A DNA stretch of 64,000 nucleotides from a virus: the IMG/VR virus record IMGVR_UViG_3300042090_002485, positions 123,863 to 187,862 of that record; one strand, given 5' to 3'. The notes under the pieces were generated by a model. It was given only the letters and a program-made list of their open reading frames with translations, did no database searches and was not told the origin of the DNA. The position numbers were made by a program, and so were the translations under genes. Of this stretch, positions 17,485 through 28,982 are shown in pieces; within the stretch, counting starts at the first letter, position 1, and the number at the start of each line of letters is the position of its first letter.

Positions 17485-19566
17485 ATGACCACCGACAAGT
17501 TCCCGCCGTTCGCGCGGATCGTAGCTGCGTCCTTCCAGGACATCGTCAAGGCCCCGCAGGCCTACATCACCAACATCGACGGCGACGAGCTGTACCGGCG
17601 TTACCTGGCCTCGTTCCCCGAGGGCACCAACCCCATCTTCAAGAAGGTGACCGAGCACGAGTGCTCGTGCTGCAGGCAGTTCATCCGCCGCGCCGGCAAC
17701 GTTGTCTCCATCGGCGACCGCGGCGTCGTTCGCACCATCTGGGACGAAGCCGAAGAGAAGGCGCCTCATCCGTACAACATCGTGGCTTCGTCACTTCGTG
17801 ACGCCGTGCTCAACGCCGAGATCTCGGACCTCTTCCGGGTCGGCGCGAAGGAAGCCGGCTTTGGCGCCGCCACCACGCGATCGATGAACGCCGATGGCCA
17901 AGCGCTGACCTGGAACCACCTCTACACGAACGAGATCCCGCCCGTGCTGCGCATCGCGTCGCCCGACCAGGCCCGCGGCGACTACCGGACAACCGTGCAG
18001 GTGTTCACGCGCGGTCTCGCCGAGCTGGTGCCGGCGGCGCTGGACACGGTCCTGTCGCTCATCGAGGCCAACAACCTGTACCGCGGCGCCGAGCACAAGA
18101 ACGCCGTCGTCGAGTTCATGAAGGCGCAGCGGGCGTTCTTGGCCTTGGCCGATAGCCCGCGCGCGCAGAACATCTTCGCGTGGACCCACGCAACCGGCCC
18201 GGCGTCGCGGTTCCGCAACACCGTGATCGGCACGCTCGTGCAGGACCTCAGCGAGGGGCGCGACGTCGAGAGCGCCGTCGCCAGCTTCGAGCAGAAGGTG
18301 GCGCCGACCAACTACAAGCGCACCACGGCGGTCATCACGCCCGCCATGGTGAAGAAGGCGATGGAGACCATCGAGACGTTGGGCCTCGAGCCCGCGCTCG
18401 AGCGTCGCTTCGCCACCATCGGCGACATCTCGGTCCGCGACGTGAAGTGGGTCGACGGCACGGTCAAGCCCGCCATGAAGGGCGGGATCGGCGACGTGCT
18501 CATGAAGGCTGCTGTTGTGAACAACAGCAAGCATGACGCGGAGCGCGCCGAGGACATCGGACTCGAGGCCTTTGTCGAGCGCGTGTTGCCGGAGGCGACC
18601 GGCGTCGAGGTCTTCCTCAAGGGCGAGCACCTCGGCAACCTGATGTCGCTGACGGCGCCCGTACACCCGGAGCCCAAGCAGCTGTTCCGCTGGAACAACG
18701 ACTTCGCATGGAGCTACGGCGGCAACGTCACCGACTCGATCGCCGAGCGCGTCAAGAAGGCCGGCGGCAAGGTCGAGGACGCGACCCTGCGTGTGTCCCT
18801 GTCGTGGTTCAACTACGATGACTTGGACTTGCACATCCACGAGCCAGCTGGGCGCGGCGTCGGCGGTCTGCGCGACCATATCTTCTATGGCAACAAGCGC
18901 GGCGCGAGCGGCGGCGCCCTCGACGTCGACATGAACGCCGGCGGCAACAGGCAGTCGCGCGAGCCCGTCGAGAACGTCGTCTGGATGGACAAGATGCCGA
19001 GCGGCGCCTACAAGGTTGTCGTCAACAACTACGTCAAGATCGAGTCCAGTGACGTCGGCTTCGTGATCGAGGTGGAGTGCGGCGGCAAGCTCTCGCACTA
19101 CTCCTACAACAAGGCGGTGCGCGACAAGCAGGACATCCACGTCGTCACCCTGCACATGACGGAAGGGCGCATCGAGAAGGTCGAAATGGGTGACCCGGCC
19201 ATCACGGCGTCGAACATCACCCAGACGAAGTGGGGGCTCACGACCGAGCAGTACGTGAAGGTCGACGCCGTCACGCTGTCGCCCAACTACTGGGGCGACA
19301 ACGCGATGGGCAACAAGCACACGTTCTTCGTCTTGCACGGCTGCAAGAACGACGAGCCCACGCGTGGCATCTACAACGAGTTCCTGCACCCGCGTCTCGA
19401 GGCCCACCGCAAGGTGTTCGAGATCATCGGCGACAAGACCAAGTGCCAGCCGACGGAGAACCAGCTCTCGGGGCTGGGCTTCTCGTCGACGAAGCGCGCG
19501 AGCGTCCTTGCGCGGGTCCAGCAGGGCAGCAAGCAGCGGCTGTTCAACATCCACGTCGGGACGTAG
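17485..19566 (+). CDS. large conserved phage protein with C-terminal YfaP/DUF2135-like domain
   Basis: 693 aa; HECSCCRQFIR N-terminal motif; SLSW...DLDLH...LDVD...ENVVW...G.YKVVVNNY. Confidence 0.8.
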   Translation: MTTDKFPPFARIVAASFQDIVKAPQAYITNIDGDELYRRYLASFPEGTNPIFKKVTEHECSCCRQFIRRAGNVVSIGDRGVVRTIWDEAEEKAPHPYNIVASSLRDAVLNAEISDLFRVGAKEAGFGAATTRSMNADGQALTWNHLYTNEIPPVLRIASPDQARGDYRTTVQVFTRGLAELVPAALDTVLSLIEANNLYRGAEHKNAVVEFMKAQRAFLALADSPRAQNIFAWTHATGPASRFRNTVIGTLVQDLSEGRDVESAVASFEQKVAPTNYKRTTAVITPAMVKKAMETIETLGLEPALERRFATIGDISVRDVKWVDGTVKPAMKGGIGDVLMKAAVVNNSKHDAERAEDIGLEAFVERVLPEATGVEVFLKGEHLGNLMSLTAPVHPEPKQLFRWNNDFAWSYGGNVTDSIAERVKKAGGKVEDATLRVSLSWFNYDDLDLHIHEPAGRGVGGLRDHIFYGNKRGASGGALDVDMNAGGNRQSREPVENVVWMDKMPSGAYKVVVNNYVKIESSDVGFVIEVECGGKLSHYSYNKAVRDKQDIHVVTLHMTEGRIEKVEMGDPAITASNITQTKWGLTTEQYVKVDAVTLSPNYWGDNAMGNKHTFFVLHGCKNDEPTRGIYNEFLHPRLEAHRKVFEIIGDKTKCQPTENQLSGLGFSSTKRASVLARVQQGSKQRLFNIHVGT

Positions 19567-21527: not shown

Positions 21528-22060
21528 CGCGCGAGACGGTTAAGCAGTGCAAGAGCTGCCCGTGGCGTGTCGATTGCGTGCCCGATCGTGACATCCCTAA
21601 CTACGTCAGGAGTCTCCACAAGGGTCTCGACGGCACCATCGCAGAGCCGGGAGACCTGCGCGGGTTGCGCGCGACCACGCTGCGCGTGATGGCCTGCCAC
21701 TACTCCAAGCCCAGCGAAGAATTCCCGTGCGCGGGCTGGTTGTACAACCAGCTCGGTCCCGGCAACAACATCGCGGTGCGGCTCCGTGTGATGACCGGCA
21801 AGATGCCGGCACCGGAAGTTGATGGGCCGCAACACGAAACTTTCGAGGAAACGTTATGCGCACCTTCGGATGGGCAGACGACCATGGAGTCGTGCACGAC
21901 GTCGTCCCTCGCTCGAGCGACCTTTGGGGCACCATCGTCTACCAGTTGCGCTGCCGCCCCACCCAAAACATCCGCTACCTGGCCTACACCGAAAACACGA
22001 CGACGTGCGTCCAGTGCATCGCCGACGCGGTCCGCGACGAGAAGGGGACGTAAGCCGTGA
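21524..22060 (+). CDS. DUF6283-like Cys/His protein with read-through tail
   Basis: CKSCPWR...MACH...CAGWL...N..VRL; tail overlaps next gene. Confidence 0.6.
   Translation: MTRETVKQCKSCPWRVDCVPDRDIPNYVRSLHKGLDGTIAEPGDLRGLRATTLRVMACHYSKPSEEFPCAGWLYNQLGPGNNIAVRLRVMTGKMPAPEVDGPQHETFEETLCAPSDGQTTMESCTTSSLARATFGAPSSTSCAAAPPKTSATWPTPKTRRRASSASPTRSATRRGRKP
21856..22053 (+). CDS. TCxxC-family small Zn-finger-like protein
   Basis: WADDHGVVH...RC...TTCVQCIA. Confidence 0.8.
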   Translation: MRTFGWADDHGVVHDVVPRSSDLWGTIVYQLRCRPTQNIRYLAYTENTTTCVQCIADAVRDEKGT

Positions 22061-22482
22061 AGACCGAGGGCTTCAAGGTCGGCGACGTCGTCTTCTACGA
22101 CGGGCGGCGCGCAAGGGTGACGACGGTACTCGCTGGTGAGTACGGTCAGCGCGTCGAGTTCCGTATTGACCAGGGCGGGGCCATCATCACGACAACGCCT
22201 GGCCTCGACCCAAGGTTCAGCGCAGAAGACACGTCGACGCCTGACTTCATTGTAGCCGACGGTCACCCGGCCATCGACAGCTATGGTGTCGTTCACGCGT
22301 GCCACGACAACCTGCGCGGGCATCCGCAGGCAGTGTCAATCTGCTCGTCGGTCAACGCCTTCCATCGGGTGATCCCATGCGAGAGTACAGTACTTACGTG
22401 CGTACGCTGCATCAACACCACCAAGGCCTGGACGGTGCCCATTTATGAACGAGCCTATGATCGGGACGTGGATCTGCTCTAA
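22057..22482 (+). CDS. TCxxC-family module fused to an SH3-like N-terminal domain
   Basis: FKVGDVVFYDGRRARV... then DSYGVVH..IC..LTCVRCI. Confidence 0.75.
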   Translation: MKTEGFKVGDVVFYDGRRARVTTVLAGEYGQRVEFRIDQGGAIITTTPGLDPRFSAEDTSTPDFIVADGHPAIDSYGVVHACHDNLRGHPQAVSICSSVNAFHRVIPCESTVLTCVRCINTTKAWTVPIYERAYDRDVDLL

Positions 22483-22657
22483 TGGACTTACACACAGTGT
22501 GGTGGTCGAGCAATCCTACGGGAACCGGCTCGAGACCTGTTGTGGCCTGAAGTTACCATGGCGAGCGGCTGACCACGTAGCGAAGCATATGGACAAACGT
22601 AGACTGGTGACGTGTGTGCTATGCGTCGGCTGTGATGACGACGACCATAACGACTAA
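22445..22657 (+). CDS. TCxxC-family small Zn-finger-like protein
   Basis: SNGLTH...CCG...VTCVLCV. Confidence 0.75.
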   Translation: MNEPMIGTWICSNGLTHSVVVEQSYGNRLETCCGLKLPWRAADHVAKHMDKRRLVTCVLCVGCDDDDHND

Positions 22658-22844
22658 ATGGGCACTCCGTGGTCCGCTGCAGGCCGTTCTTTTGGACGGC
22701 GTAATGCACTACGCGCTGTCGTCCGGGGTGTTAACCTGCGACACGTTTCCTATCGGACCTGAGTATCTCCACGAAGACAACGTACCGGACCAGGTTGCGA
22801 CCTGCGTGTGGTGCTGCGTTCACAAGACCAAGAGGACCCCATGA
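22635..22844 (+). CDS. TCxxC-family small Zn-finger-like protein
   Basis: LDGVMH...TC...ATCVWC. Confidence 0.75.
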   Translation: MTTTITTKWALRGPLQAVLLDGVMHYALSSGVLTCDTFPIGPEYLHEDNVPDQVATCVWCCVHKTKRTP

Positions 22845-23272
22845 AGCTTGCGCAAGCCCTGTATCACCTCTACTGCGACGACGCCGGTTGGAAGAACTTC
22901 CAAGGCAACAAGTGCCCGCAGTGGGACGAGCTGCCGGAGCCCATCCGCACCCACTGGACAGTGGTCGCGCAGATGTTCGAGAGCCTGACGTTCAACCGAC
23001 TCGTCGCGATGCGTGACCGTCCCGAGATGTTCGCGTGCACCTACGACGGGTTCCTCGGCCAGCTCGGCACGATCTTCGACTACGCGACGGTGTACCTCTC
23101 CCCTGGCACGCGCGACAAAGCGTCGCGCGAGCACATGATGAAGCTCGTGCACGACGGCCCGAGCGGCGTGATTCAGGCCAATGCGCGCTTTGGTGACGAC
23201 GAGGCCTCGCTCGAGTGGGCACGAGCCGCCGTCGACCAGACGAAGAAGCGCATCGAGGAGCTGACGGCATGA
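22841..23272 (+). CDS. hypothetical protein
   Basis: 143 aa, ATGA overlaps. Confidence 0.7.
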   Translation: MKLAQALYHLYCDDAGWKNFQGNKCPQWDELPEPIRTHWTVVAQMFESLTFNRLVAMRDRPEMFACTYDGFLGQLGTIFDYATVYLSPGTRDKASREHMMKLVHDGPSGVIQANARFGDDEASLEWARAAVDQTKKRIEELTA

Positions 23273-23577
23273 TCGTGGGCATGATCGAGGGCGTCGTCCA
23301 GGACGACATCGCCGAGCTGGAGGTGCCGGTCTTCCTGGCGTGGGACGCGCCTACCCTCGTCACCCACGCGGCAACGCTCTACCGCACGGGAAAGCCCTAC
23401 ATCTGGTGCTACGGCGAGGTCCAGGATATGAACGTCACCCTTGCACACCGTAACCCAGTGACGTGCGTGCTATGCCGCGCGCGCGGTCCGCGCGGAGTGT
23501 GGATTGCCACCGGGAGCAGGCACGGACGTGTCGAAATGCGTCGCGGTGCGCCCAGTATCACGCTGGATACGGAATGA
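23269..23577 (+). CDS. TCxxC-family small Zn-finger-like protein
   Basis: TLVTH...WC...VTCVLC. Confidence 0.75.
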   Translation: MIVGMIEGVVQDDIAELEVPVFLAWDAPTLVTHAATLYRTGKPYIWCYGEVQDMNVTLAHRNPVTCVLCRARGPRGVWIATGSRHGRVEMRRGAPSITLDTE

Positions 23578-23810
23578 CCGAGCGGGCGTACGTGAAGGCG
23601 CTCTCGCCGTACGACACGCTCACGCACCTAGCGGAGGAAACCTTGGGAACATGGCGAGGTGACATTGCGTCGGTCCTCCAGCTGCCGTGCCGCCCGGGGA
23701 CTACCGAAATTCTGCCCGCGTCGGTGTTCTTGGGTGAGGACGACGCGGTCGTGACGTGCGCGCTGTGCCTGGCCGCCATGGTTAACAACCCATCCAAGGA
23801 GCCGCCGTGA
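23574..23810 (+). CDS. TCxxC-family small Zn-finger-like protein
   Basis: DTLTH...PC...VTCALCLA. Confidence 0.8.
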   Translation: MTERAYVKALSPYDTLTHLAEETLGTWRGDIASVLQLPCRPGTTEILPASVFLGEDDAVVTCALCLAAMVNNPSKEPP

Positions 23811-24163
23811 GGGGCGCGCAGTTCGACGGCGACATTGCTACAGCGTCCGCCGAGAAGCTGCTCGAGGAGTTCGAGCGCCTCGAGGCCGAAGAGCGCGCGT
23901 TCATCACGGACAACCAGCACCACCTGCTGGCAGACATGGAGAACCCCTACGACGGCCTGCTCGAGCTGATCGGCAAAGCAAGCCAGGCGCGGTTTAAGTG
24001 CACAGTGCGCTTCCTGCGCGAAAACGGGGTCGTGCGCGCGTCGTGGACGCACGCGGGCGTCACTCACAACTACCTGGGCCGCGGTTGGTGCGCAGGCAAG
24101 GTGCGGCTCGACCGCCCGACGCAGCCAGTGACCTGCGTCGAGTGCTTGGCGAGGCATCCATGA
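23807..24163 (+). CDS. TCxxC-family module fused to an acidic helical N-terminus
   Basis: HAGVTH...WC...VTCVECLA. Confidence 0.75.
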   Translation: MRGAQFDGDIATASAEKLLEEFERLEAEERAFITDNQHHLLADMENPYDGLLELIGKASQARFKCTVRFLRENGVVRASWTHAGVTHNYLGRGWCAGKVRLDRPTQPVTCVECLARHP

Positions 24164-24735
24164 GCAAGCGCATGACCCGCCCGCCGCGCGTGGTCTACGC
24201 GACCAAGCGCGAGCGCAACATCCTCGACGAAGTCCGCGTGCGTCCGTCGTTTGGCGCCATCGTCAAGCGGGCACGCGAAATCGGTGACTGGAACTTCGTT
24301 GCGTTCAAGGGTCGCCCGGCCCTGCGGTGCAAAGAAACCGAGTTCGTGCTCGTTGGCGGGCATCCCGAGAACATCTGCGTGGTGTGGTGGGCTTGCCTCG
24401 ACTACCTCAACAACTTCGAGAGCATGGTGCGAGCGCTGTTCGGCAGCCGCTCACAGGCCGACGGCGCGCACGTGCTGTGGGGCGGCAGCCATGGCGAGGG
24501 GACGGAGACCCGCCGCATGGTCGCCCGCGCGGCGCTCGCGCTCGCTGCCGACAAGGTTCTGGGCCGCGCAGCGCCCGATGAGCGCATCGTCCTGGTCGAC
24601 ACCACAGGCATCACGCACGACATGATTTGGATGGAGGCGATCGGCTGCGACGAGGAGGTATACGTCAAGTGCCCCGAACGTGGCGCCGCGCCAACGTGCG
24701 CGCGATGCATCGCGGCTCGCGTAGTGTCGCCATGA
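24160..24735 (+). CDS. TCxxC-family module fused to a ~140-aa N-terminal domain
   Basis: DTTGITH...GC...PTCARCIA. Confidence 0.75.
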   Translation: MSKRMTRPPRVVYATKRERNILDEVRVRPSFGAIVKRAREIGDWNFVAFKGRPALRCKETEFVLVGGHPENICVVWWACLDYLNNFESMVRALFGSRSQADGAHVLWGGSHGEGTETRRMVARAALALAADKVLGRAAPDERIVLVDTTGITHDMIWMEAIGCDEEVYVKCPERGAAPTCARCIAARVVSP

Positions 24736-24902
24736 CGACGTGGACCGATGCGCATGGCGTCGTGCACATTTGCACGCAGTGGGTCGTCTCCAAGCGATGG
24801 ACCCTAACGTGCGACGTCGACATGTACGTGACCCCTGACAAAATCGCGAGGCCTCCGGTGTGTGTCCTGTGCCTCGCAACGTGGTTGGAAGGGCAATCAT
24901 GA
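24732..24902 (+). CDS. TCxxC-family small Zn-finger-like protein
   Basis: WTDAHGVVH...TC...PVCVLCLA. Confidence 0.8.
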   Translation: MTTWTDAHGVVHICTQWVVSKRWTLTCDVDMYVTPDKIARPPVCVLCLATWLEGQS

Positions 24903-25078
24903 CGTGGACCGACTTCAAAACGGGCATCACGCACGAGATGACCGAGAACGACGAACATGGCGTCTGGTTCACGTCGTTGTGCTGCGGCTGCGATGTACGA
25001 TGGCACTGGGCTGAAGCCCGCGGCACGCTCGTGACGTGCGTGGTGTGCATCGCGATCCTGATGAGGCGCACGTCATGA
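24899..25078 (+). CDS. TCxxC-family small Zn-finger-like protein
   Basis: MTWTDFKTGITHEM...CCGC...VTCVVCIA. Confidence 0.8.
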   Translation: MTWTDFKTGITHEMTENDEHGVWFTSLCCGCDVRWHWAEARGTLVTCVVCIAILMRRTS

Positions 25079-25266
25079 CGTGGACCGATCCCACCGGCAT
25101 CACCCACGAGATGGTACGCACAGCGAACTTCAAGACGACGTTCGGTTACGGCCTCAACTGCGAACCCGCGCTGTTGTTCGGCATGGGCGCGTCGAATTGG
25201 CCGACGCGTGTGGTGACGTGCGTGAAGTGCCGAGCGGCCGAGCCATGGCCGGGGCCGGGCCTATGA
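25075..25266 (+). CDS. TCxxC-family small Zn-finger-like protein
   Basis: MTWTDPTGITHEM...NC...VTCVKC. Confidence 0.8.
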   Translation: MTWTDPTGITHEMVRTANFKTTFGYGLNCEPALLFGMGASNWPTRVVTCVKCRAAEPWPGPGL

Positions 25267-25472
25267 CGTTGACCTGGCGCGACGCCGCGGGCGTTGTTCA
25301 CCGCGTCTATGACGTGACGGGCTGGATGTTTATGTGTCCCTATGACCTCCGAATATGTAGGTTCTTTGGGTGCGACGTCCTAACGACGATCAGCGACGAG
25401 GCAATTCGAGTCGACGGCGTGGTGACGTGCGTGGAGTGCTTGGCCGTGCTGGCCATCACAGGAAAGGAGTAA
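25263..25472 (+). CDS. TCxxC-family small Zn-finger-like protein
   Basis: WRDAAGVVH...C...VTCVECLA. Confidence 0.8.
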   Translation: MTLTWRDAAGVVHRVYDVTGWMFMCPYDLRICRFFGCDVLTTISDEAIRVDGVVTCVECLAVLAITGKE

Positions 25473-25473
25473 C

Positions 25474-25931
25474 CATGCTTATCCGGTTGTCACCCAAGGA
25501 ATGCGTAACTCATGAAACGTAAGAAGGTCACAGAGGCGTTCCAGTATTTGGACGTCGACTGGAATCGCACGTTCAAGCCGAAGTGGAGTGACTCGGCCGT
25601 CGAGTTGACCTTCTACAAAGGCAAGGTGCTCGTCAGCGTGCCGTACGGCACCGCGCGCGCGAAGGCACTCCAGGAGCAAACAGGGTTCGTCGTGGCGGGG
25701 TCCGCGTGGCTTCACGCCAAGGATATCGACGGCCTCATCAAGCTCCTGCGTGAAGGACGCCGCGTCTATATGCAGCACCAGCGAGATGCTCTCAAGGTCG
25801 CCAACTGCGATGACTGTCGCAAGATTTTCGGCGGTGTCTGCGATCGTCACCGACCGCTGTTCAAGAAGTACGGCAAGAAGAAATCTCCGCCACGGGGACT
25901 CCGATGACTGGGTGTCAACCGGATAAGCATG
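25474..25931. mobile_element. 458-bp non-autonomous mini-element with terminal inverted repeats and target-site duplication
   Basis: TIR CATGCTTATCCGGTTGTCACCCA (25474-25496) / TGGGTGTCAACCGGATAAGCATG (25909-25931), 22/23 match; direct repeat GGAGTAAC at 25466-25473 and 25932-25939. Confidence 0.8.
25512..25907 (+). CDS. passenger hypothetical protein of the mini-element
   Basis: 131 aa filling the interval between the TIRs; C-terminal CDDC...CDRH; no DDE transposase features. Confidence 0.75.
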   Translation: MKRKKVTEAFQYLDVDWNRTFKPKWSDSAVELTFYKGKVLVSVPYGTARAKALQEQTGFVVAGSAWLHAKDIDGLIKLLREGRRVYMQHQRDALKVANCDDCRKIFGGVCDRHRPLFKKYGKKKSPPRGLR

Positions 25932-25940
25932 GGAGTAACC

Positions 25941-26117
25941 ATGTTCCTGCCTGCTATGGAGGGCCGCTACGTCGACAACGACTACATCACGCACGTGTGC
26001 GTGCTGCAGACGATAGGTGTGCACCGATGGCGTACCCGCTGCAGTCTGACCCCAACGAACGCGCAGGTTGACCATATCCGAGTCACGGTCACCTGTGTGT
26101 TGTGCATCGCGCCGTGA
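25941..26117 (+). CDS. TCxxC-family small Zn-finger-like protein
   Basis: DYITH...RC...VTCVLCIA; GGAG SD lies in the duplicated target. Confidence 0.8.
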   Translation: MFLPAMEGRYVDNDYITHVCVLQTIGVHRWRTRCSLTPTNAQVDHIRVTVTCVLCIAP

Positions 26118-26302
26118 GCCGTCGCGATCGAGACCCGGTGTGGTCTGACGACAGCGGCATTGTGCATCGCCTCTACCCTGGGTCTTCATTACGCTTGCGC
26201 GTTGCTTGTAGCAGCTTCGACTACCAGAAACCCGACCGACGCGGGCGCTACGTGCGGCGGATCGTCACATGTGTCCGCTGCCTCGCGACGTTCGCGCGAT
26301 AA
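26114..26302 (+). CDS. TCxxC-family small Zn-finger-like protein
   Basis: WSDDSGIVH...AC...VTCVRCLA. Confidence 0.8.
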   Translation: MSRRDRDPVWSDDSGIVHRLYPGSSLRLRVACSSFDYQKPDRRGRYVRRIVTCVRCLATFAR

Positions 26303-26333
26303 ACATCATCACAACAGGAAGGAGGCAACGAAC

Positions 26334-26549
26334 ATGTCCAAGCAGCTCAAGAGCACCGCCCCGTCCCGCTCCGTCATCGACGTCGGCCCCGGCGACTACA
26401 TCAAGATCGGCTCGCACTGGGAGAAGATCACCTCGAACAGTGCCCAGGGCGCGGAGCACACGCCGCGGAGCTGGAGCGTGCGCACCGAGCGCGGGGAGTA
26501 CGGGATGTTCGGCATCAACCGGTACGCCAAAGCGGAGGACCTCGAATGA
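26334..26549 (+). CDS. small hypothetical protein
   Basis: AAGGAGG SD; 71 aa. Confidence 0.7.
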   Translation: MSKQLKSTAPSRSVIDVGPGDYIKIGSHWEKITSNSAQGAEHTPRSWSVRTERGEYGMFGINRYAKAEDLE

Positions 26550-26710
26550 ACGGTTGCTGCATGGCCTCGTGCGACGGACGTAGCCACGACCTCGAGTGCC
26601 GCTGGTATTGGCCTTGCGGCTGTCCTAAAGAACGACCTGCAGGGGCAAAGCGCGCAAAGCCACACGTGCATCGCTACGAAGAACCCGATGACAACGAGGA
26701 CCTCGAGTGA
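26546..26710 (+). CDS. small Cys-rich protein
   Basis: ATGA/GTGA overlaps; MNGCCMASCDGRSHDLEC...; 54 aa. Confidence 0.5.
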   Translation: MNGCCMASCDGRSHDLECRWYWPCGCPKERPAGAKRAKPHVHRYEEPDDNEDLE

Positions 26711-26940
26711 CGTTCGACGAAGACGACACCCGCATCCGTGTTCGCGCGGGCAATCACGCAGTGGTGCGTCGAGTCCGCGACGACTTCGTTCACCTCATCA
26801 TTCCACGCCGGCGCGGCCCTGACGATGTCGCACTAACCGCGGCGTGCCATGCACCATGGGCGATGTGGACGTACGCCCGTGTGGACGCGCCGCTGACCTG
26901 TGTGTTGTGCATCGCATACGATATTCAATGCCCGTCATGA
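26707..26940 (+). CDS. TCxxC-family small Zn-finger-like protein
   Basis: DDFVH...AC...LTCVLCIA. Confidence 0.8.
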   Translation: MTFDEDDTRIRVRAGNHAVVRRVRDDFVHLIIPRRRGPDDVALTAACHAPWAMWTYARVDAPLTCVLCIAYDIQCPS

Positions 26941-27125
26941 ACGTGTCGCTGCCGTCTCTCGAGGGCGATCGCGCGGTCGCCCCTGACGGCGTCGTTCATG
27001 TCTGGGACAAGCTAGTCGACGGCACGATCTGCGGCTCGCAGGTCGAATGGTGGCGATTCCGGCTCGTCAACAGGGACACGCTCGTGACGTGCGTGGGATG
27101 TGTCGCTCGTGCGCCCGCGGACTAA
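26937..27125 (+). CDS. TCxxC-family small Zn-finger-like protein
   Basis: APDGVVH...ICG...VTCVGCVA. Confidence 0.8.
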   Translation: MNVSLPSLEGDRAVAPDGVVHVWDKLVDGTICGSQVEWWRFRLVNRDTLVTCVGCVARAPAD

Positions 27126-27315
27126 CAAATACACGCGCCCTGGCGACACCGTCGTGGATAGCACAGGCATCACGCACGTCGTCATAGACACCGACGCGTA
27201 CTGGATATGGTCGCACTGCCTCGTTCGCGGGATGCCCCCCGACTGGCGCGTGCGCGACGTCGCACCAACGTGCGTGCTCTGCATCGCAAAGAGGATTCAA
27301 CTTGGCACCTATTAA
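27100..27315 (+). CDS. TCxxC-family small Zn-finger-like protein
   Basis: DSTGITH...HC...PTCVLCIA. Confidence 0.8.
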   Translation: MSLVRPRTNKYTRPGDTVVDSTGITHVVIDTDAYWIWSHCLVRGMPPDWRVRDVAPTCVLCIAKRIQLGTY

Positions 27316-27520
27316 CTGCTTCTATGCGATCGGGGACGTCGTCCACATCGCGCGTTGCACGATGAGCACGTGGCGGTTGTTGTGCTGGGACGACGGAGAC
27401 ATCCCGCTCGGCGAGTACGGCCCCGAACCCATACACCCTGGCCCGCCCACGTGCGCGGCGTGCGTCGGGCGTGCACCTCGGGACCTCTACGACATGCTGC
27501 TCGAGCCGTCCCGTGCCTAA
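27302..27520 (+). CDS. TCxxC-family small Zn-finger-like protein
   Basis: GDVVH...LC...PTCAACV. Confidence 0.8.
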   Translation: MAPINCFYAIGDVVHIARCTMSTWRLLCWDDGDIPLGEYGPEPIHPGPPTCAACVGRAPRDLYDMLLEPSRA

Positions 27521-27725
27521 GCTCCCCGCCGATCACGTCGCGCCGCACACCGACGCCAAGGGCATCACGCACGTCGCGATCGTCTTCGACGGCAGCTGGG
27601 TCGTGCGCTGCAACTGGGTATACCTGGCGAGCTGGCAGGTCCAGGCGTCCATCGGAGCCGTGGTCACATGCGCGACCTGCGTGGCGCTCGCGCCAGACGT
27701 GTTCTACGAGAAGGAGAGGTACTGA
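27513..27725 (+). CDS. TCxxC-family small Zn-finger-like protein
   Basis: DAKGITH...RC...VTCATCVA. Confidence 0.8.
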   Translation: MPKLPADHVAPHTDAKGITHVAIVFDGSWVVRCNWVYLASWQVQASIGAVVTCATCVALAPDVFYEKERY

Positions 27726-27949
27726 TGGCACGCGCGGGTAACTACGACGAAACCCAGGGTGCCGCGGCATGGCGCACCACCGACGGCCTCATTCACGTTG
27801 TGACCGCGATGCGACGAGACAAGGGGTGGCAGCAGTTGTGCCGTGTCCACGGGCTCGACGTCGGCAAGACGCTGCCTGGAGACCGTTCGGACCATCTAGT
27901 CACGTGCGTCCGCTGCATCGCACAGCTAATCTACCTGGCGGCGTTGTGA
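27725..27949 (+). CDS. TCxxC-family small Zn-finger-like protein
   Basis: TDGLIH...LC...VTCVRCIA. Confidence 0.8.
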   Translation: MARAGNYDETQGAAAWRTTDGLIHVVTAMRRDKGWQQLCRVHGLDVGKTLPGDRSDHLVTCVRCIAQLIYLAAL

Positions 27950-28152
27950 GGCGTGTCCTGCCCGGGCACCGCGTCGCATGTCCCGATGGCTTGGTTCACC
28001 TTGTGTACGAGGTCGATATCAGCCCTCCACGGATCTACGTGCACTGCCCAAACGACTTTCCGCGGAACCGCGTGCAGATCGTGCTGACGCAACCGCTGAC
28101 GTGCGTGGTGTGCTTGACCTGCGAGCTGCGCGGAGATGCCGATGACCCGTGA
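27946..28152 (+). CDS. TCxxC-family small Zn-finger-like protein
   Basis: PDGLVH...HC...LTCVVCL. Confidence 0.8.
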   Translation: MRRVLPGHRVACPDGLVHLVYEVDISPPRIYVHCPNDFPRNRVQIVLTQPLTCVVCLTCELRGDADDP

Positions 28153-28324
28153 TGGTGCAGGACGGCGTGTTGCCTCGTACGGTCTCATCCACATCGTGGA
28201 TTTCTTTCTCTTCGGAGACGCTGTTACGTTGTGCAACGTCACCCCTCTCAACATCGACGAATGGGAGTACTCTCGTCGCCGTACCACATGCGTGCTGTGC
28301 ATCGCACTGGAGAACAAACAATGA
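28136..28324 (+). CDS. TCxxC-family small Zn-finger-like protein
   Basis: SYGLIH...LC...TTCVLCIA. Confidence 0.8.
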   Translation: MPMTRDGAGRRVASYGLIHIVDFFLFGDAVTLCNVTPLNIDEWEYSRRRTTCVLCIALENKQ

Positions 28325-28800
28325 ACGAACACATGGACGAACAAGAACATCAACGACTCCACCAAGAAGCCAACCAGATGATCTGCGACCTGCTCAACAG
28401 GTTCGCCGACGAAGCACAGCTGGCCATGCACGCGCGCTTCAACTGCCCGGAGTCGGATGAATCGCCCGAGGCGCGCCGGCGGCGCGACTGCATCTCGCAA
28501 GAGGTCCACGGCGCGCTTGCGCAGGCCACGGGCGCGATGGAGGGGTTCCTCGTCGCACGCGGCGCCGAAGCGCTAGAGGCGTACCGGGATCGTGTCCGGT
28601 CGTTCATGAACGGCTACGTCACCGGGCTGCGCGCCGGCGGCGTACCCGCGGAGCAGATCCCGGCGGTGATCAACCAGATCGGTGCGACGATGGTCGAAGC
28701 GGGAACGCCAATGGCGCCCGCATCGCAGGAGCCGATACGTCGGTCAGGGAGGCCACTGCGTGAGGTGATGGCGGGGCGGCGGCACCGGAGACGGCGATGA
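28321..28800 (+). CDS. hypothetical helical protein
   Basis: 159 aa, ATGA overlaps. Confidence 0.7.
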   Translation: MNEHMDEQEHQRLHQEANQMICDLLNRFADEAQLAMHARFNCPESDESPEARRRRDCISQEVHGALAQATGAMEGFLVARGAEALEAYRDRVRSFMNGYVTGLRAGGVPAEQIPAVINQIGATMVEAGTPMAPASQEPIRRSGRPLREVMAGRRHRRRR

Positions 28801-28982
28801 TGCGACCGTATCGCATACGCGACGGCTTCGGTGTCGTGCACATCGAAAGTCTTCTCGCCGGGTATCCGCTGTGCAACCGGGAGCGTCGCCTGTTCGACGC
28901 CGACATCATTGGTCGCGAGGCCCTTGTCACCTGCGCCAGCTGCATCGGCGCGGCCCTCAACACCACTAGGAACGCCACATGA
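28797..28982 (+). CDS. TCxxC-family small Zn-finger-like protein
   Basis: RDGFGVVH...LC...VTCASCI. Confidence 0.8.
   Translation: MMRPYRIRDGFGVVHIESLLAGYPLCNRERRLFDADIIGREALVTCASCIGAALNTTRNAT

What the first reader, a model, noticed from the sequence alone, without database searches (positions are those of the whole stretch)
25466..25939. 458-bp gene-carrying mini-transposon with 23-bp TIRs and an 8-bp target duplication that copies a ribosome-binding site
Seen: GGAGTAAC|CATGCTTATCCGGTTGTCACCCA ... TGGGTGTCAACCGGATAAGCATG|GGAGTAAC. A 24-bp TIR with a 6-bp TSD also fits. The element holds one 131-aa non-transposase ORF. The duplicated target contains the upstream stop and the GGAG SD of the downstream gene, so both neighbours stay intact. 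Established: TIR plus TSD is the footprint of DDE transposition. Inference: a non-autonomous element mobilised in trans delivering cargo into the array.
Basis: partly seen in the sequence, partly recalled or inferred. Interest (0 to 1): 0.7.

Follow-up and report, generated by a model that had tools for sequence, protein, structure and literature searches.

The report
Transposase-less IS1595 gene cassette in phage
A 458-bp jumping-gene remnant of a known bacterial family (IS1595) has placed one small gene of unknown function between two genes of a large phage without damaging either. It has no transposase of its own, and relatives with the same ends carry many different genes in other phages and bacteria.

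Summary
Window 25474-25931 is a 458-bp element with 23-nt terminal inverted repeats (one mismatch). It is flanked by a perfect 8-bp duplication, GGAGTAAC, and filled almost completely by a 131-aa ORF.

The interpretation also holds.
- **Same ends elsewhere:** the repeat core occurs in 34 viral and 98 bacterial genome stretches, nearly always as inward-facing pairs. Of 74 pairs, 52 have their own perfect 8-bp duplication.
- **Cognate transposase:** the long pairs encode IS1595-family transposases (PF12762, PF12760, NF033547). The closest named relative found is ISAcr1, with 19 of 23 repeat bases identical and an 8-bp duplication.
- **Non-autonomous:** the 187.9-kb phage genome has no IS1595 transposase and no other copy of the repeat.
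- **Cargo:** the ORF is a real, conserved gene (20 representative clusters) of unknown function. Three homologues examined lie in contexts without these repeats.

This is a mobile insertion cassette, a known kind of element. No described IS1595-derived cassette in a phage turned up in four literature searches.

I found no empty site, and mobilisation in trans is inferred. Earlier reports of this scan describe similar IS1595 cassettes and cargo-carrying transposons in other phages (e1-1161351, e1-5729689).

The parts
25263..25472 (+). Upstream neighbour, a 69-aa member of the phage's array of small Cys/His-motif paralogues. Its last codons and stop (AAG GAG TAA) lie in the left copy of the duplication.
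   Evidence: The ATG at 25263 overlaps the previous gene's stop (ATGA). No Pfam match.
25466..25473 (.). Left copy of the 8-bp target-site duplication, GGAGTAAC.
   Evidence: direct repeat D12. The 8-bp length is the family rule: 52 of 74 repeat pairs have a perfect 8-bp duplication.
25474..25496 (+). Left terminal inverted repeat, 23 nt, CATGCTTATCCGGTTGTCACCCA.
   Evidence: It matches the family consensus CRTGCTTATCCGGTTGWCACCCA.
25497..25500 (+). AGGA, a probable ribosome-binding site of the passenger gene. It directly abuts the inner edge of the left repeat, 11 nt before the ATG.
   Evidence: Read from the sequence. Several other cargo-only elements also have a ribosome-binding site directly after the repeat. 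That it functions is inferred.
25512..25907 (+). Passenger gene, 131 aa, co-oriented with the phage genes. It has a conserved YKG...AW...D(I)D..L..LR core, a C-terminal C-x2-C-x7-C-x2-H motif and a Lys/Arg-rich tail.
   Evidence: 20 representative clusters; 50 synonymous against 27 non-synonymous codon changes versus the L039 homologue. AlphaFold2 mean pLDDT 83.6.
25909..25931 (-). Right terminal inverted repeat, 23 nt, the TTGACA variant at positions 14-19.
25932..25939 (.). Right copy of the 8-bp target-site duplication, GGAGTAAC. It now supplies the GGAG ribosome-binding site of the downstream gene.
25941..26117 (+). Downstream neighbour, a 58-aa member of the same paralogue array, ending ...VTCVLCIAP. 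Its ATG lies 5 nt after GGAG.
   Evidence: No Pfam match.

Best explanation
Window 25474-25931 is a mobile insertion cassette. It is a non-autonomous derivative of an ISAcr1-like insertion sequence of the IS1595 family, in which a single passenger gene sits between the two 23-nt transposase-binding ends where autonomous relatives carry the transposase gene.

An IS1595 DDE transposase supplied in trans recognised the two ends. The source would be a copy in the host chromosome or in a co-infecting phage or prophage. It inserted the unit by staggered cleavage of an 8-bp target, GGAGTAAC, which was then duplicated.

The target lay in the junction between two translationally packed phage genes. The duplication therefore regenerated both the stop codon of the upstream gene and the ribosome-binding site of the downstream gene.

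The cassette has no recognisable promoter or terminator. Its ribosome-binding site abuts the left repeat and the gene points the same way as its neighbours. It is therefore probably expressed by read-through of the phage operon.

The passenger is a small phage-type accessory protein. My weak guess is that it binds nucleic acid.

What is shown: the structure, the family of the ends, the cognate transposase family, its absence from this genome, and that the cargo is a conserved gene. What is inferred: mobilisation in trans, the mode of expression and the cargo's function.
For: 1. **Structure.** 23-nt repeats with one mismatch plus a perfect 8-bp duplication. None is expected by chance.
2. **Spread.** The 19-nt repeat core occurs in 34 viral-contig stretches and 98 bacterial genome stretches. 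These are nearly always +/- pairs 100-2,600 bp apart.
3. **Independent insertions.** Of 74 pairs, 52 have a perfect 8-bp duplication, each different. Conservation stops at position 23-24.
4. **Transposase.** Long pairs encode 335-350-aa proteins with PF12762 DDE_Tnp_IS1595 plus PF12760 Zn_ribbon_IS1595 and NF033547.
5. **Named relative.** ISAcr1 on Acidiphilium plasmids has ends 19/23 identical and an 8-bp duplication.
6. **Family traits in the literature.** PMC8101967 gives 8-bp duplications, an N-terminal zinc finger and a DDE domain for the IS1595 family. PMC5704250 reports 25-bp repeats and 8-bp direct repeats for MTnSag1 and tISCpe8.
7. **Non-autonomous.** The whole genome has no IS1595 transposase (with positive controls) and no further repeat copy.
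8. **Interchangeable cargo.** Elements with the same ends carry unrelated genes. These include C5 and N6/N4 DNA methyltransferases, a HAD hydrolase, DUF7736 and TnpB.
9. **Cargo origin.** Passenger homologues at 76%, 56% and 45% identity sit in repeat-free arrays of overlapping short genes.
10. **Expression.** No promoter-like or terminator-like site in 25200-26200. A ribosome-binding site abutting the repeat recurs in other cargo-only elements.
Against: - No empty site was found. The viral scan gave nothing. The 13 metagenome matches share nothing else with the locus. No relatives of either flanking gene were found in viral contigs. So the insertion has no before-and-after proof in this lineage.
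- No second copy of this particular cassette, with the same cargo between the same ends, was found at another site. Mobility of this exact unit therefore rests on its duplication and on the behaviour of the family.
- The source of the transposase is unknown, because the host is unknown.
- The target GGAGTAAC fits the weak target consensus (about GWWYGWWC) at only 5 of 8 positions.
Confidence: 0.9

Rival explanations
1. The element is autonomous, and the 131-aa protein is itself a novel very small transposase, as was once considered for the ultra-small mycobacteriophage elements (MPME).
For: The ORF fills the element almost exactly, with 15 nt and 1 nt of spacer. It has a Cys/His motif and a basic tail that could bind DNA. 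No transposase is present elsewhere in the genome.
Against: - The same ends flank canonical IS1595 transposases.
- They also flank many mutually unrelated cargo genes.
- The three closest homologues whose contigs I examined lie in contexts without these repeats.
- None of the other elements found carries a homologue of this protein.
- No DDE, HUH, serine-recombinase or tyrosine-recombinase signature was detected.
Confidence: 0.02
2. The inverted repeats are regulatory stem-loops, like the promoter-early stem-loops that flank shuffled gene cassettes in T4-type phages. On this view the gene arrived by recombination between such repeats, not by transposition.
For: The right repeat contains a perfect TTGACA. 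In transposase-bearing relatives this acts as the -35 of an inward promoter. Genes flanked by inverted repeats are known to move in phages by recombination (my own knowledge, not checked here).
Against: - A perfect 8-bp duplication sits exactly at the repeat tips here and in 52 of 74 pairs, each with a different sequence. That is the mark of staggered-cut transposition, not of homologous recombination.
- This genome has no other copy of the repeat to recombine with.
- No -10 element follows either repeat in the window.
Confidence: 0.04
3. The repeats and the duplication are a local hairpin, an assembly artefact or a chance coincidence.
Against: No such repeat appears in 100 shuffles. The same 23-nt sequence bounds elements in more than 100 other viral and bacterial stretches. 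The exact protein is recorded on 3 contigs in the protein collection.
Confidence: 0.01

Closest known systems
Mobile insertion cassettes (MICs), such as the IS231-derived MIC231 of the Bacillus cereus group (De Palmenaer et al. 2004, cited in PMC3129680)
   Same: The ends of an insertion sequence bound one or more passenger genes unrelated to transposition. There is no transposase gene, a target duplication is present, and the cognate transposase is presumed to mobilise the unit in trans (concept as stated in PMC3129680).
   Different: This cassette derives from the IS1595 family, not IS231/IS4. It sits in a large phage genome, not a bacterial chromosome or plasmid. It is extremely compact (458 bp, one gene, no spare non-coding DNA) and appears to have no promoter.
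ISAcr1 and ISAcr1-like IS1595-family insertion sequences (about 1.17 kb, Acidiphilium plasmids and many environmental bacteria)
   Same: The terminal repeats are 19/23 identical to the window's, with an 8-bp duplication. The bare 1,168-bp copies in uncultured Alphaproteobacteria have the same repeat core and a zinc-ribbon plus DDE_Tnp_IS1595 transposase.
   Different: Those are autonomous and carry only a transposase. The window element has no transposase and carries cargo in its place.
Transporter IS (tIS) of the IS1595 family, such as MTnSag1 and tISCpe8 (PMC5704250; Siguier, Gagnevin and Chandler 2009, cited in PMC3129680)
   Same: IS1595-type ends (25-bp repeats) and 8-bp direct repeats, with passenger genes inside the repeats. 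Phage-borne examples with the window's repeat were found here: L005, L007, L021, L024 and L029 carry a transposase plus methyltransferases or small ORFs.
   Different: A tIS keeps its transposase, and the window element does not. The MTnSag1 and tISCpe8 passengers are a lincomycin-resistance gene and mobilisation functions. Here the passenger is a small phage-type protein.
Mycobacteriophage mobile elements MPME1 and MPME2 (PMC3029335)
   Same: Ultra-small elements (439 bp) bounded by inverted repeats in phage genomes, holding one small ORF.
   Different: MPME insertions add an unexplained 6-bp sequence at the left repeat and do not duplicate the target (PMC3029335), and no cognate transposase is known (my own recollection, not checked). 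The window element has a true 8-bp duplication and an identified transposase family. It has no DNA similarity to any record of the phage collection.
Integron gene cassettes (a functional analogy only)
   Same: Single, promoter-less genes inserted as units into an expressed array and dependent on read-through transcription.
   Different: There is no attC site, and no tyrosine-recombinase integrase is involved. Movement is by DDE transposition with a target duplication.

Membership tests
IS1595 family (as a derivative of it) | Terminal inverted repeats shared with elements that encode an IS1595 transposase | tested here: met
   The same 23-nt ends bound elements encoding PF12762, PF12760 and NF033547 proteins. 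The ends of ISAcr1 are 19/23 identical.
IS1595 family (as a derivative of it) | 8-bp target-site duplication | tested here: met
   GGAGTAAC is present on both sides. 52 of 74 family pairs have a perfect 8-bp duplication. The literature gives 8 bp for the family (PMC8101967, PMC5704250).
IS1595 family (autonomous insertion sequence) | Encodes a DDE_Tnp_IS1595 transposase, with an N-terminal zinc ribbon in most groups | tested here: not met
   The only ORF has no Pfam, PHROG or NCBIfam match. The whole genome has no match to PF12762 or to a phage-borne IS1595 transposase. It is therefore a derivative of the family, not an insertion sequence.
Mobile insertion cassette (MIC) | Insertion-sequence ends, no transposase, and one or more passenger genes unrelated to transposition between the ends | tested here: met
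Mobile insertion cassette (MIC) | Mobilised in trans by the cognate transposase | not testable with these tools
   Inferred only from the duplication and from the many independent insertions of sister elements. No empty site or second copy of this cassette was found.
MITE | Short non-coding element with insertion-sequence ends | tested here: not met
   86% of the element is a conserved ORF under purifying selection. True non-coding relatives of 100-300 bp with the same ends exist in other genomes.
Transporter IS (tIS) | Passenger genes and a transposase inside the same repeats | tested here: not met
   There is no transposase in the element. Sister elements L005, L007, L021, L024 and L029 do meet this feature.
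MPME (mycobacteriophage mobile elements) | A 439-440-bp element with a 6-bp added sequence at the left repeat instead of a target duplication | tested here: not met
   A true 8-bp duplication is present. The element has no DNA similarity to any record of the phage collection. MPME features are from PMC3029335.
PC4 / Pur-alpha (Whirly-like) single-strand nucleic-acid binders, for the passenger protein | A four-stranded beta-sheet packed against a helix, with detectable structural similarity | tested here: inconclusive
   - Foldseek against PDB: best hit Borrelia Pur-alpha 3nm7, E 0.55, TM 0.36/0.56.
- VIA-align: Z 4.6-4.7 for the same protein, the only matches seen that covered the N-terminal sheet among rows otherwise aligned to the long helix.
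- Atlas structure search: DUF3276 at TM 0.50 and PC4/YdbC at TM 0.41.
- All values are below what would establish the fold.

The most novel reading that the evidence does not exclude
Cassettes bounded by ISAcr1-type IS1595 ends may be a general way for phages to gain and exchange single accessory genes, working much like integron cassettes. They are single-gene and promoter-less, with the ribosome-binding site fused to the repeat.

They would drop into the junctions of packed phage operons, where the 8-bp duplication rebuilds the neighbours' stop and start signals. On this reading they are favoured in viral genomes over bacterial ones. The DNA methyltransferases and TnpB found as cargo in sister elements would be examples of counter-defence or selfish payloads moved the same way.

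In the small sample here, cargo-only forms were 10 of 21 viral elements against 4 of 31 bacterial ones (Fisher p = 0.01).
Probability: 0.35. Interest if true: 0.6.

Novelty: new member of a known kind. Interest (0 to 1): 0.45.

Why it matters
Transposable elements are thought to be rare and mostly harmful in the tightly packed genomes of lytic-type phages. This element is a clean case of the opposite. A transposon derivative of minimal size added a gene to a phage without cost to either neighbour, because the duplicated target carried both the stop codon and the ribosome-binding site.

Together with its sister elements in other viral contigs, it points to DDE transposition as one source of phage mosaicism, alongside recombination and homing endonucleases. 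Those sisters carry methyltransferases, TnpB and many unknown genes.

It also gives a practical handle. The 23-nt end sequence can be used to pull newly acquired accessory genes out of phage metagenomes. The element itself is an ordinary member of known classes (IS1595 family, mobile insertion cassette), so its individual novelty is modest.

Tried and rejected
- **Empty site.** The exact 21-mer in viral contigs gave nothing. A 19-mer in metagenome contigs gave 13 hits, none sharing any further similarity with the locus by blastn or tblastx, so they are chance matches.
- **Flanking genes.** Relatives of the two flanking genes in viral contigs: none.
- **DNA similarity.** The element has no match in cultured-phage records.
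- **Passenger by peptide patterns.** Nothing in viral contigs.
- **Passenger by family libraries.** Pfam, PHROGs and NCBIfam gave nothing.
- **Fold searches.**
  - PDB by Foldseek: no hit at E <= 0.001.
  - VIA-align wide: the rows are dominated by generic long-helix matches at Z 5-6.
  - BFVD: only uncharacterised small phage proteins, E >= 0.035.
  - A model of the N-terminal 98 residues from a 5-sequence alignment was worse (pLDDT 62.9) and was not searched.
- **Other cargo.** The 134-aa cargo of the similar-sized element in L018 is unrelated to the passenger (hhalign probability 0.5%).
- **Viral nature of sister contigs.** An HK97 capsid Pfam search on five of them found nothing. A PHROG scan of their flanks did show phage-type replication genes.
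- **Insertion-site bias.** Insertion sites tend to have shorter spanning open frames than random positions (median percentile 0.24 viral, 0.14 bacterial). The measure is noisy in GC-rich DNA and I do not lean on it.
- **Composition.** The element's G+C (57.6%) and the passenger's GC3 (0.76) do not differ from the neighbouring small genes, so composition says nothing about the time of arrival.

Full report
**1. The observation**

The window is the last 64 kb of a 187,862-bp virus record with direct terminal repeats.

| Feature | Coordinates | Detail |
|---|---|---|
| Left duplication copy | 25466-25473 | GGAGTAAC |
| Left repeat | 25474-25496 | 23 nt, CATGCTTATCCGGTTGTCACCCA |
| ORF | 25512-25907 | 131 aa |
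| Right repeat | 25909-25931 | reverse complement, one mismatch |
| Right duplication copy | 25932-25939 | GGAGTAAC |

The element is 458 bp, made up of 23 + 15 + 396 + 1 + 23 nt. No such repeat appears in 100 shuffles of the window. The two arms are the only copies in the whole genome, even with three mismatches allowed.

The upstream gene (25263-25472) ends AAG GAG TAA inside the left copy of the duplication. The right copy supplies GGAG five bases before the ATG at 25941 of the downstream gene.

**2. A real transposon family**

The 19-nt core of the repeat, with W at the variable position, has exact matches in 34 stretches of IMG/VR viral contigs and 98 stretches of bacterial genomes. The bacterial hits are mostly uncultured Alpha- and Betaproteobacteria. 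Nitrospira, Acidobacteria, Verrucomicrobia and Actinomycetes also appear.

With a few mismatches allowed, the hits resolve into inward-facing +/- pairs 100-2,600 bp apart. Of 74 pairs with enough flank, 52 have a perfect 8-bp direct repeat immediately outside the ends, and each is different.

In 52 non-redundant elements the consensus end is CRTGCTTATCCGGTTGWCACCCA. Position 1 is C in 97%, and conservation collapses after position 23-24. The target shows a weak preference of about GWWYGWWC. The 24/6 reading is an accident of this particular target.

**3. The transposase**

Pairs of about 1.1-2.6 kb contain a 335-350-aa ORF. It carries PF12762 (DDE_Tnp_IS1595, E down to 1e-33), PF12760 (the IS1595 zinc ribbon) and NCBIfam NF033547, IS1595 family transposase.

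In bacterial genomes the commonest form is a bare 1,168-bp insertion sequence. Its closest named relative in the plasmid collection is ISAcr1 of Acidiphilium. The ends of ISAcr1 are 19/23 identical to the window's repeat, and its duplication is 8 bp.

[quoted passage not shown] It gives 25-bp repeats with 8-bp direct repeats for the passenger-carrying members MTnSag1 and tISCpe8 (PMC5704250).

**4. The window element is non-autonomous**

Its only ORF matches no transposase model. The complete phage genome has no match to a phage-borne IS1595 transposase or to PF12762, although the control genomes do match. Movement must therefore have depended on a transposase supplied from elsewhere. This step is inferred.

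**5. The cargo**

The ORF is a real gene.
- An exhaustive profile-free search finds 20 representative clusters. They share a conserved YKG...AW...D(I)D..L..LR core, and most have a C-terminal C-x2-C...C-x2-H motif.
- Against the 75%-identical homologue in L039, differences fall 23/9/66 by codon position, with 50 synonymous and 27 non-synonymous codon changes.
- The three closest homologues whose contigs could be read (76%, 56% and 45% identity) lie in dense arrays of short, overlapping genes with no trace of the repeat. I did not verify that these contigs are viral.
- A fourth homologue, in L039, has a solitary right-end repeat five bases upstream of its start.

The gene therefore belongs to a small pool of genes that usually sit outside these repeats, in phage-like arrays, and was captured between IS1595 ends.

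AlphaFold2 gives a confident model (pLDDT 83.6): a small beta-sheet, a short helix, a 29-residue helix, then the Cys/His motif and a basic tail. Fold searches give only weak, though recurrent, resemblance to Pur-alpha, DUF3276 and PC4 single-strand binders, and to many uncharacterised small phage proteins. Nucleic-acid binding is my guess at roughly one in three. It is not a finding.

**6. Sister elements**

Elements with the same ends carry mutually unrelated cargo.

| Cargo | Where |
|---|---|
| C5 DNA methyltransferase | L007 |
| 468-aa N6/N4 methyltransferase | L024 |
| HAD hydrolase, DUF7736 | among 35 cargo ORFs scanned |
| TnpB | L016, L027, L032 |
| Many ORFs without a family | various |

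Among elements with a perfect duplication:

| Form | Viral (21) | Bacterial (31) |
|---|---|---|
| Transposase plus cargo | 6 | 2 |
| Bare insertion sequence | 0 | 14 |
| Non-coding miniature | 5 | 11 |
| Cargo only | 10 | 4 |

For cargo-only forms Fisher p = 0.01. The samples come from different collections through an exact 19-mer seed, so this is only suggestive.

The viral contigs carrying them have phage-type replication genes in the flanks: DNA polymerase, helicase, endonuclease VII, HNH and integrase. One contig with an autonomous copy is a complete 60.9-kb genome with terminal repeats.

**7. How the cassette is probably expressed**

In all 16 transposase-bearing elements examined, the repeat upstream of the transposase holds TTGACA at positions 14-19 (TTGTCA in one). 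A 17-nt spacer and a -10-like hexamer follow in most. This is an inward promoter whose -35 lies in the repeat. In four of the viral transposase-bearing elements (L005, L007, L021, L029) the cargo sits between this promoter and the transposase gene.

The window cassette has TTGACA only at its far (right) end, with no -10 behind it. It has no promoter-like or terminator-like site at all. Its left repeat runs straight into AGGA and the start codon. Several other cargo-only elements share this layout: L018, L100, L022, L013 and L034. The gene points the same way as the surrounding phage genes, so read-through expression is the most economical reading. This too is inferred.

**8. What is missing**

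I found no empty site, no relatives of the flanking genes and no second insertion of this same cassette.

**9. Comparison with what is known**

The element meets the definition of a mobile insertion cassette: insertion-sequence ends, a passenger gene, no transposase and a duplication (concept in PMC3129680). It derives from the IS1595 family, whose transposase-bearing, passenger-carrying forms (transporter IS) are already described.
- It is not a MITE, because it is coding.
- It is not a tIS, because it has no transposase.
- It is not an MPME, because those add 6 bp and do not duplicate the target (PMC3029335).

Four literature searches turned up no description of IS1595-derived cassettes in phages. 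Earlier reports of this scan describe the same phenomenon in other phage genomes (e1-1161351, e1-5729689 and others).

**10. Verdict**

This is a new member of a known kind. It is of moderate interest as a very clean example, and as an entry point to a family of cargo-swapping elements that looks enriched in phages.

Noticed in passing
window 24732-27125 (and more widely 21856-28982): The cassette sits in a tandem array of small (about 55-70 aa) paralogous genes. Each has a His-containing N-terminal motif (for example MTWTD..GITHEM or GVVH) and a C-terminal (V)TCxxC(I/L)A motif. Many are joined by ATGA or GTGA overlaps. None has a Pfam match. Earlier notes of the scan count about 41 copies in the genome.
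   Followed up: partly
L016:654-1789, L027:4200-5335, L032:5316-6454: Three 1.14-kb elements with the same IS1595-type ends carry a 351-aa TnpB (PF07282 plus PF01385) as their only gene. They have no matching 8-bp duplication (6-7 mismatches of 8). Their ends are also similar to each other beyond the 23-nt repeat. Possible causes are recombination between copies or a different way of moving.
   Followed up: partly
L032 (IMGVR_UViG_3300050119_000104, 117 kb), also L004, L025, L027 of the same contig: One viral contig holds at least 12 repeat copies in 10 kb. They include several about 235-bp non-coding miniature elements, each with a different perfect 8-bp duplication. An IS1595 transposase gene lies elsewhere on the contig (L138), and its own left end shares only the first 15 nt of the repeat. 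This looks like a burst of transposition inside one viral or virus-like genome.
   Followed up: partly
L005, L007, L014, L015, L021, L024, L029, L046 and others (transposase-upstream ends): The repeat upstream of the transposase contains TTGACA at positions 14-19 (TTGTCA in L060). In most, a -10-like hexamer (TAGTAT, TAGATA, TAGGTA, TATGCT, TATAGT or TAGTTT) follows exactly 17 nt later. The transposase promoter is therefore built half into the end sequence.
   Followed up: partly
L039:146-168: A solitary right-end repeat (GGGTGCCAACCGGATAAGCACG) lies 5 nt upstream of the start of a 79%-identical homologue of the passenger gene. It faces away from the gene, and no partner repeat is present on the 1,062-bp contig. 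It may be a remnant of how the gene came to be associated with these ends.
   Followed up: partly
L009, L012, L033, L034:3989-4580, L035 (cargo-upstream ends): A subset of cargo-only viral elements shares a subterminal motif, (A)CCCACTA(G/A/C)AT(G/C)T followed by AGGAG, about 20 nt inside the repeat. The window cassette lacks it. It could be a promoter element or a second transposase-binding site.
   Followed up: no
L047, L065, L067, L068, L070, L076, L078, L082 and others (MAG CAMATZ01, labelled Bordetella parapertussis): In this MAG the repeat lies about 120-145 nt from the end of many contigs. This is the pattern expected when a multi-copy insertion sequence breaks a short-read assembly.
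   Followed up: no
window 17485-19566: A 693-aa protein without a Pfam match has full-length relatives at 44-46% identity in 549 phage records. Their hosts are very different (Microcoleus, Salmonella, Pseudomonas, Ruegeria, Xanthomonas). One relative is annotated as a structural protein.
   Followed up: no
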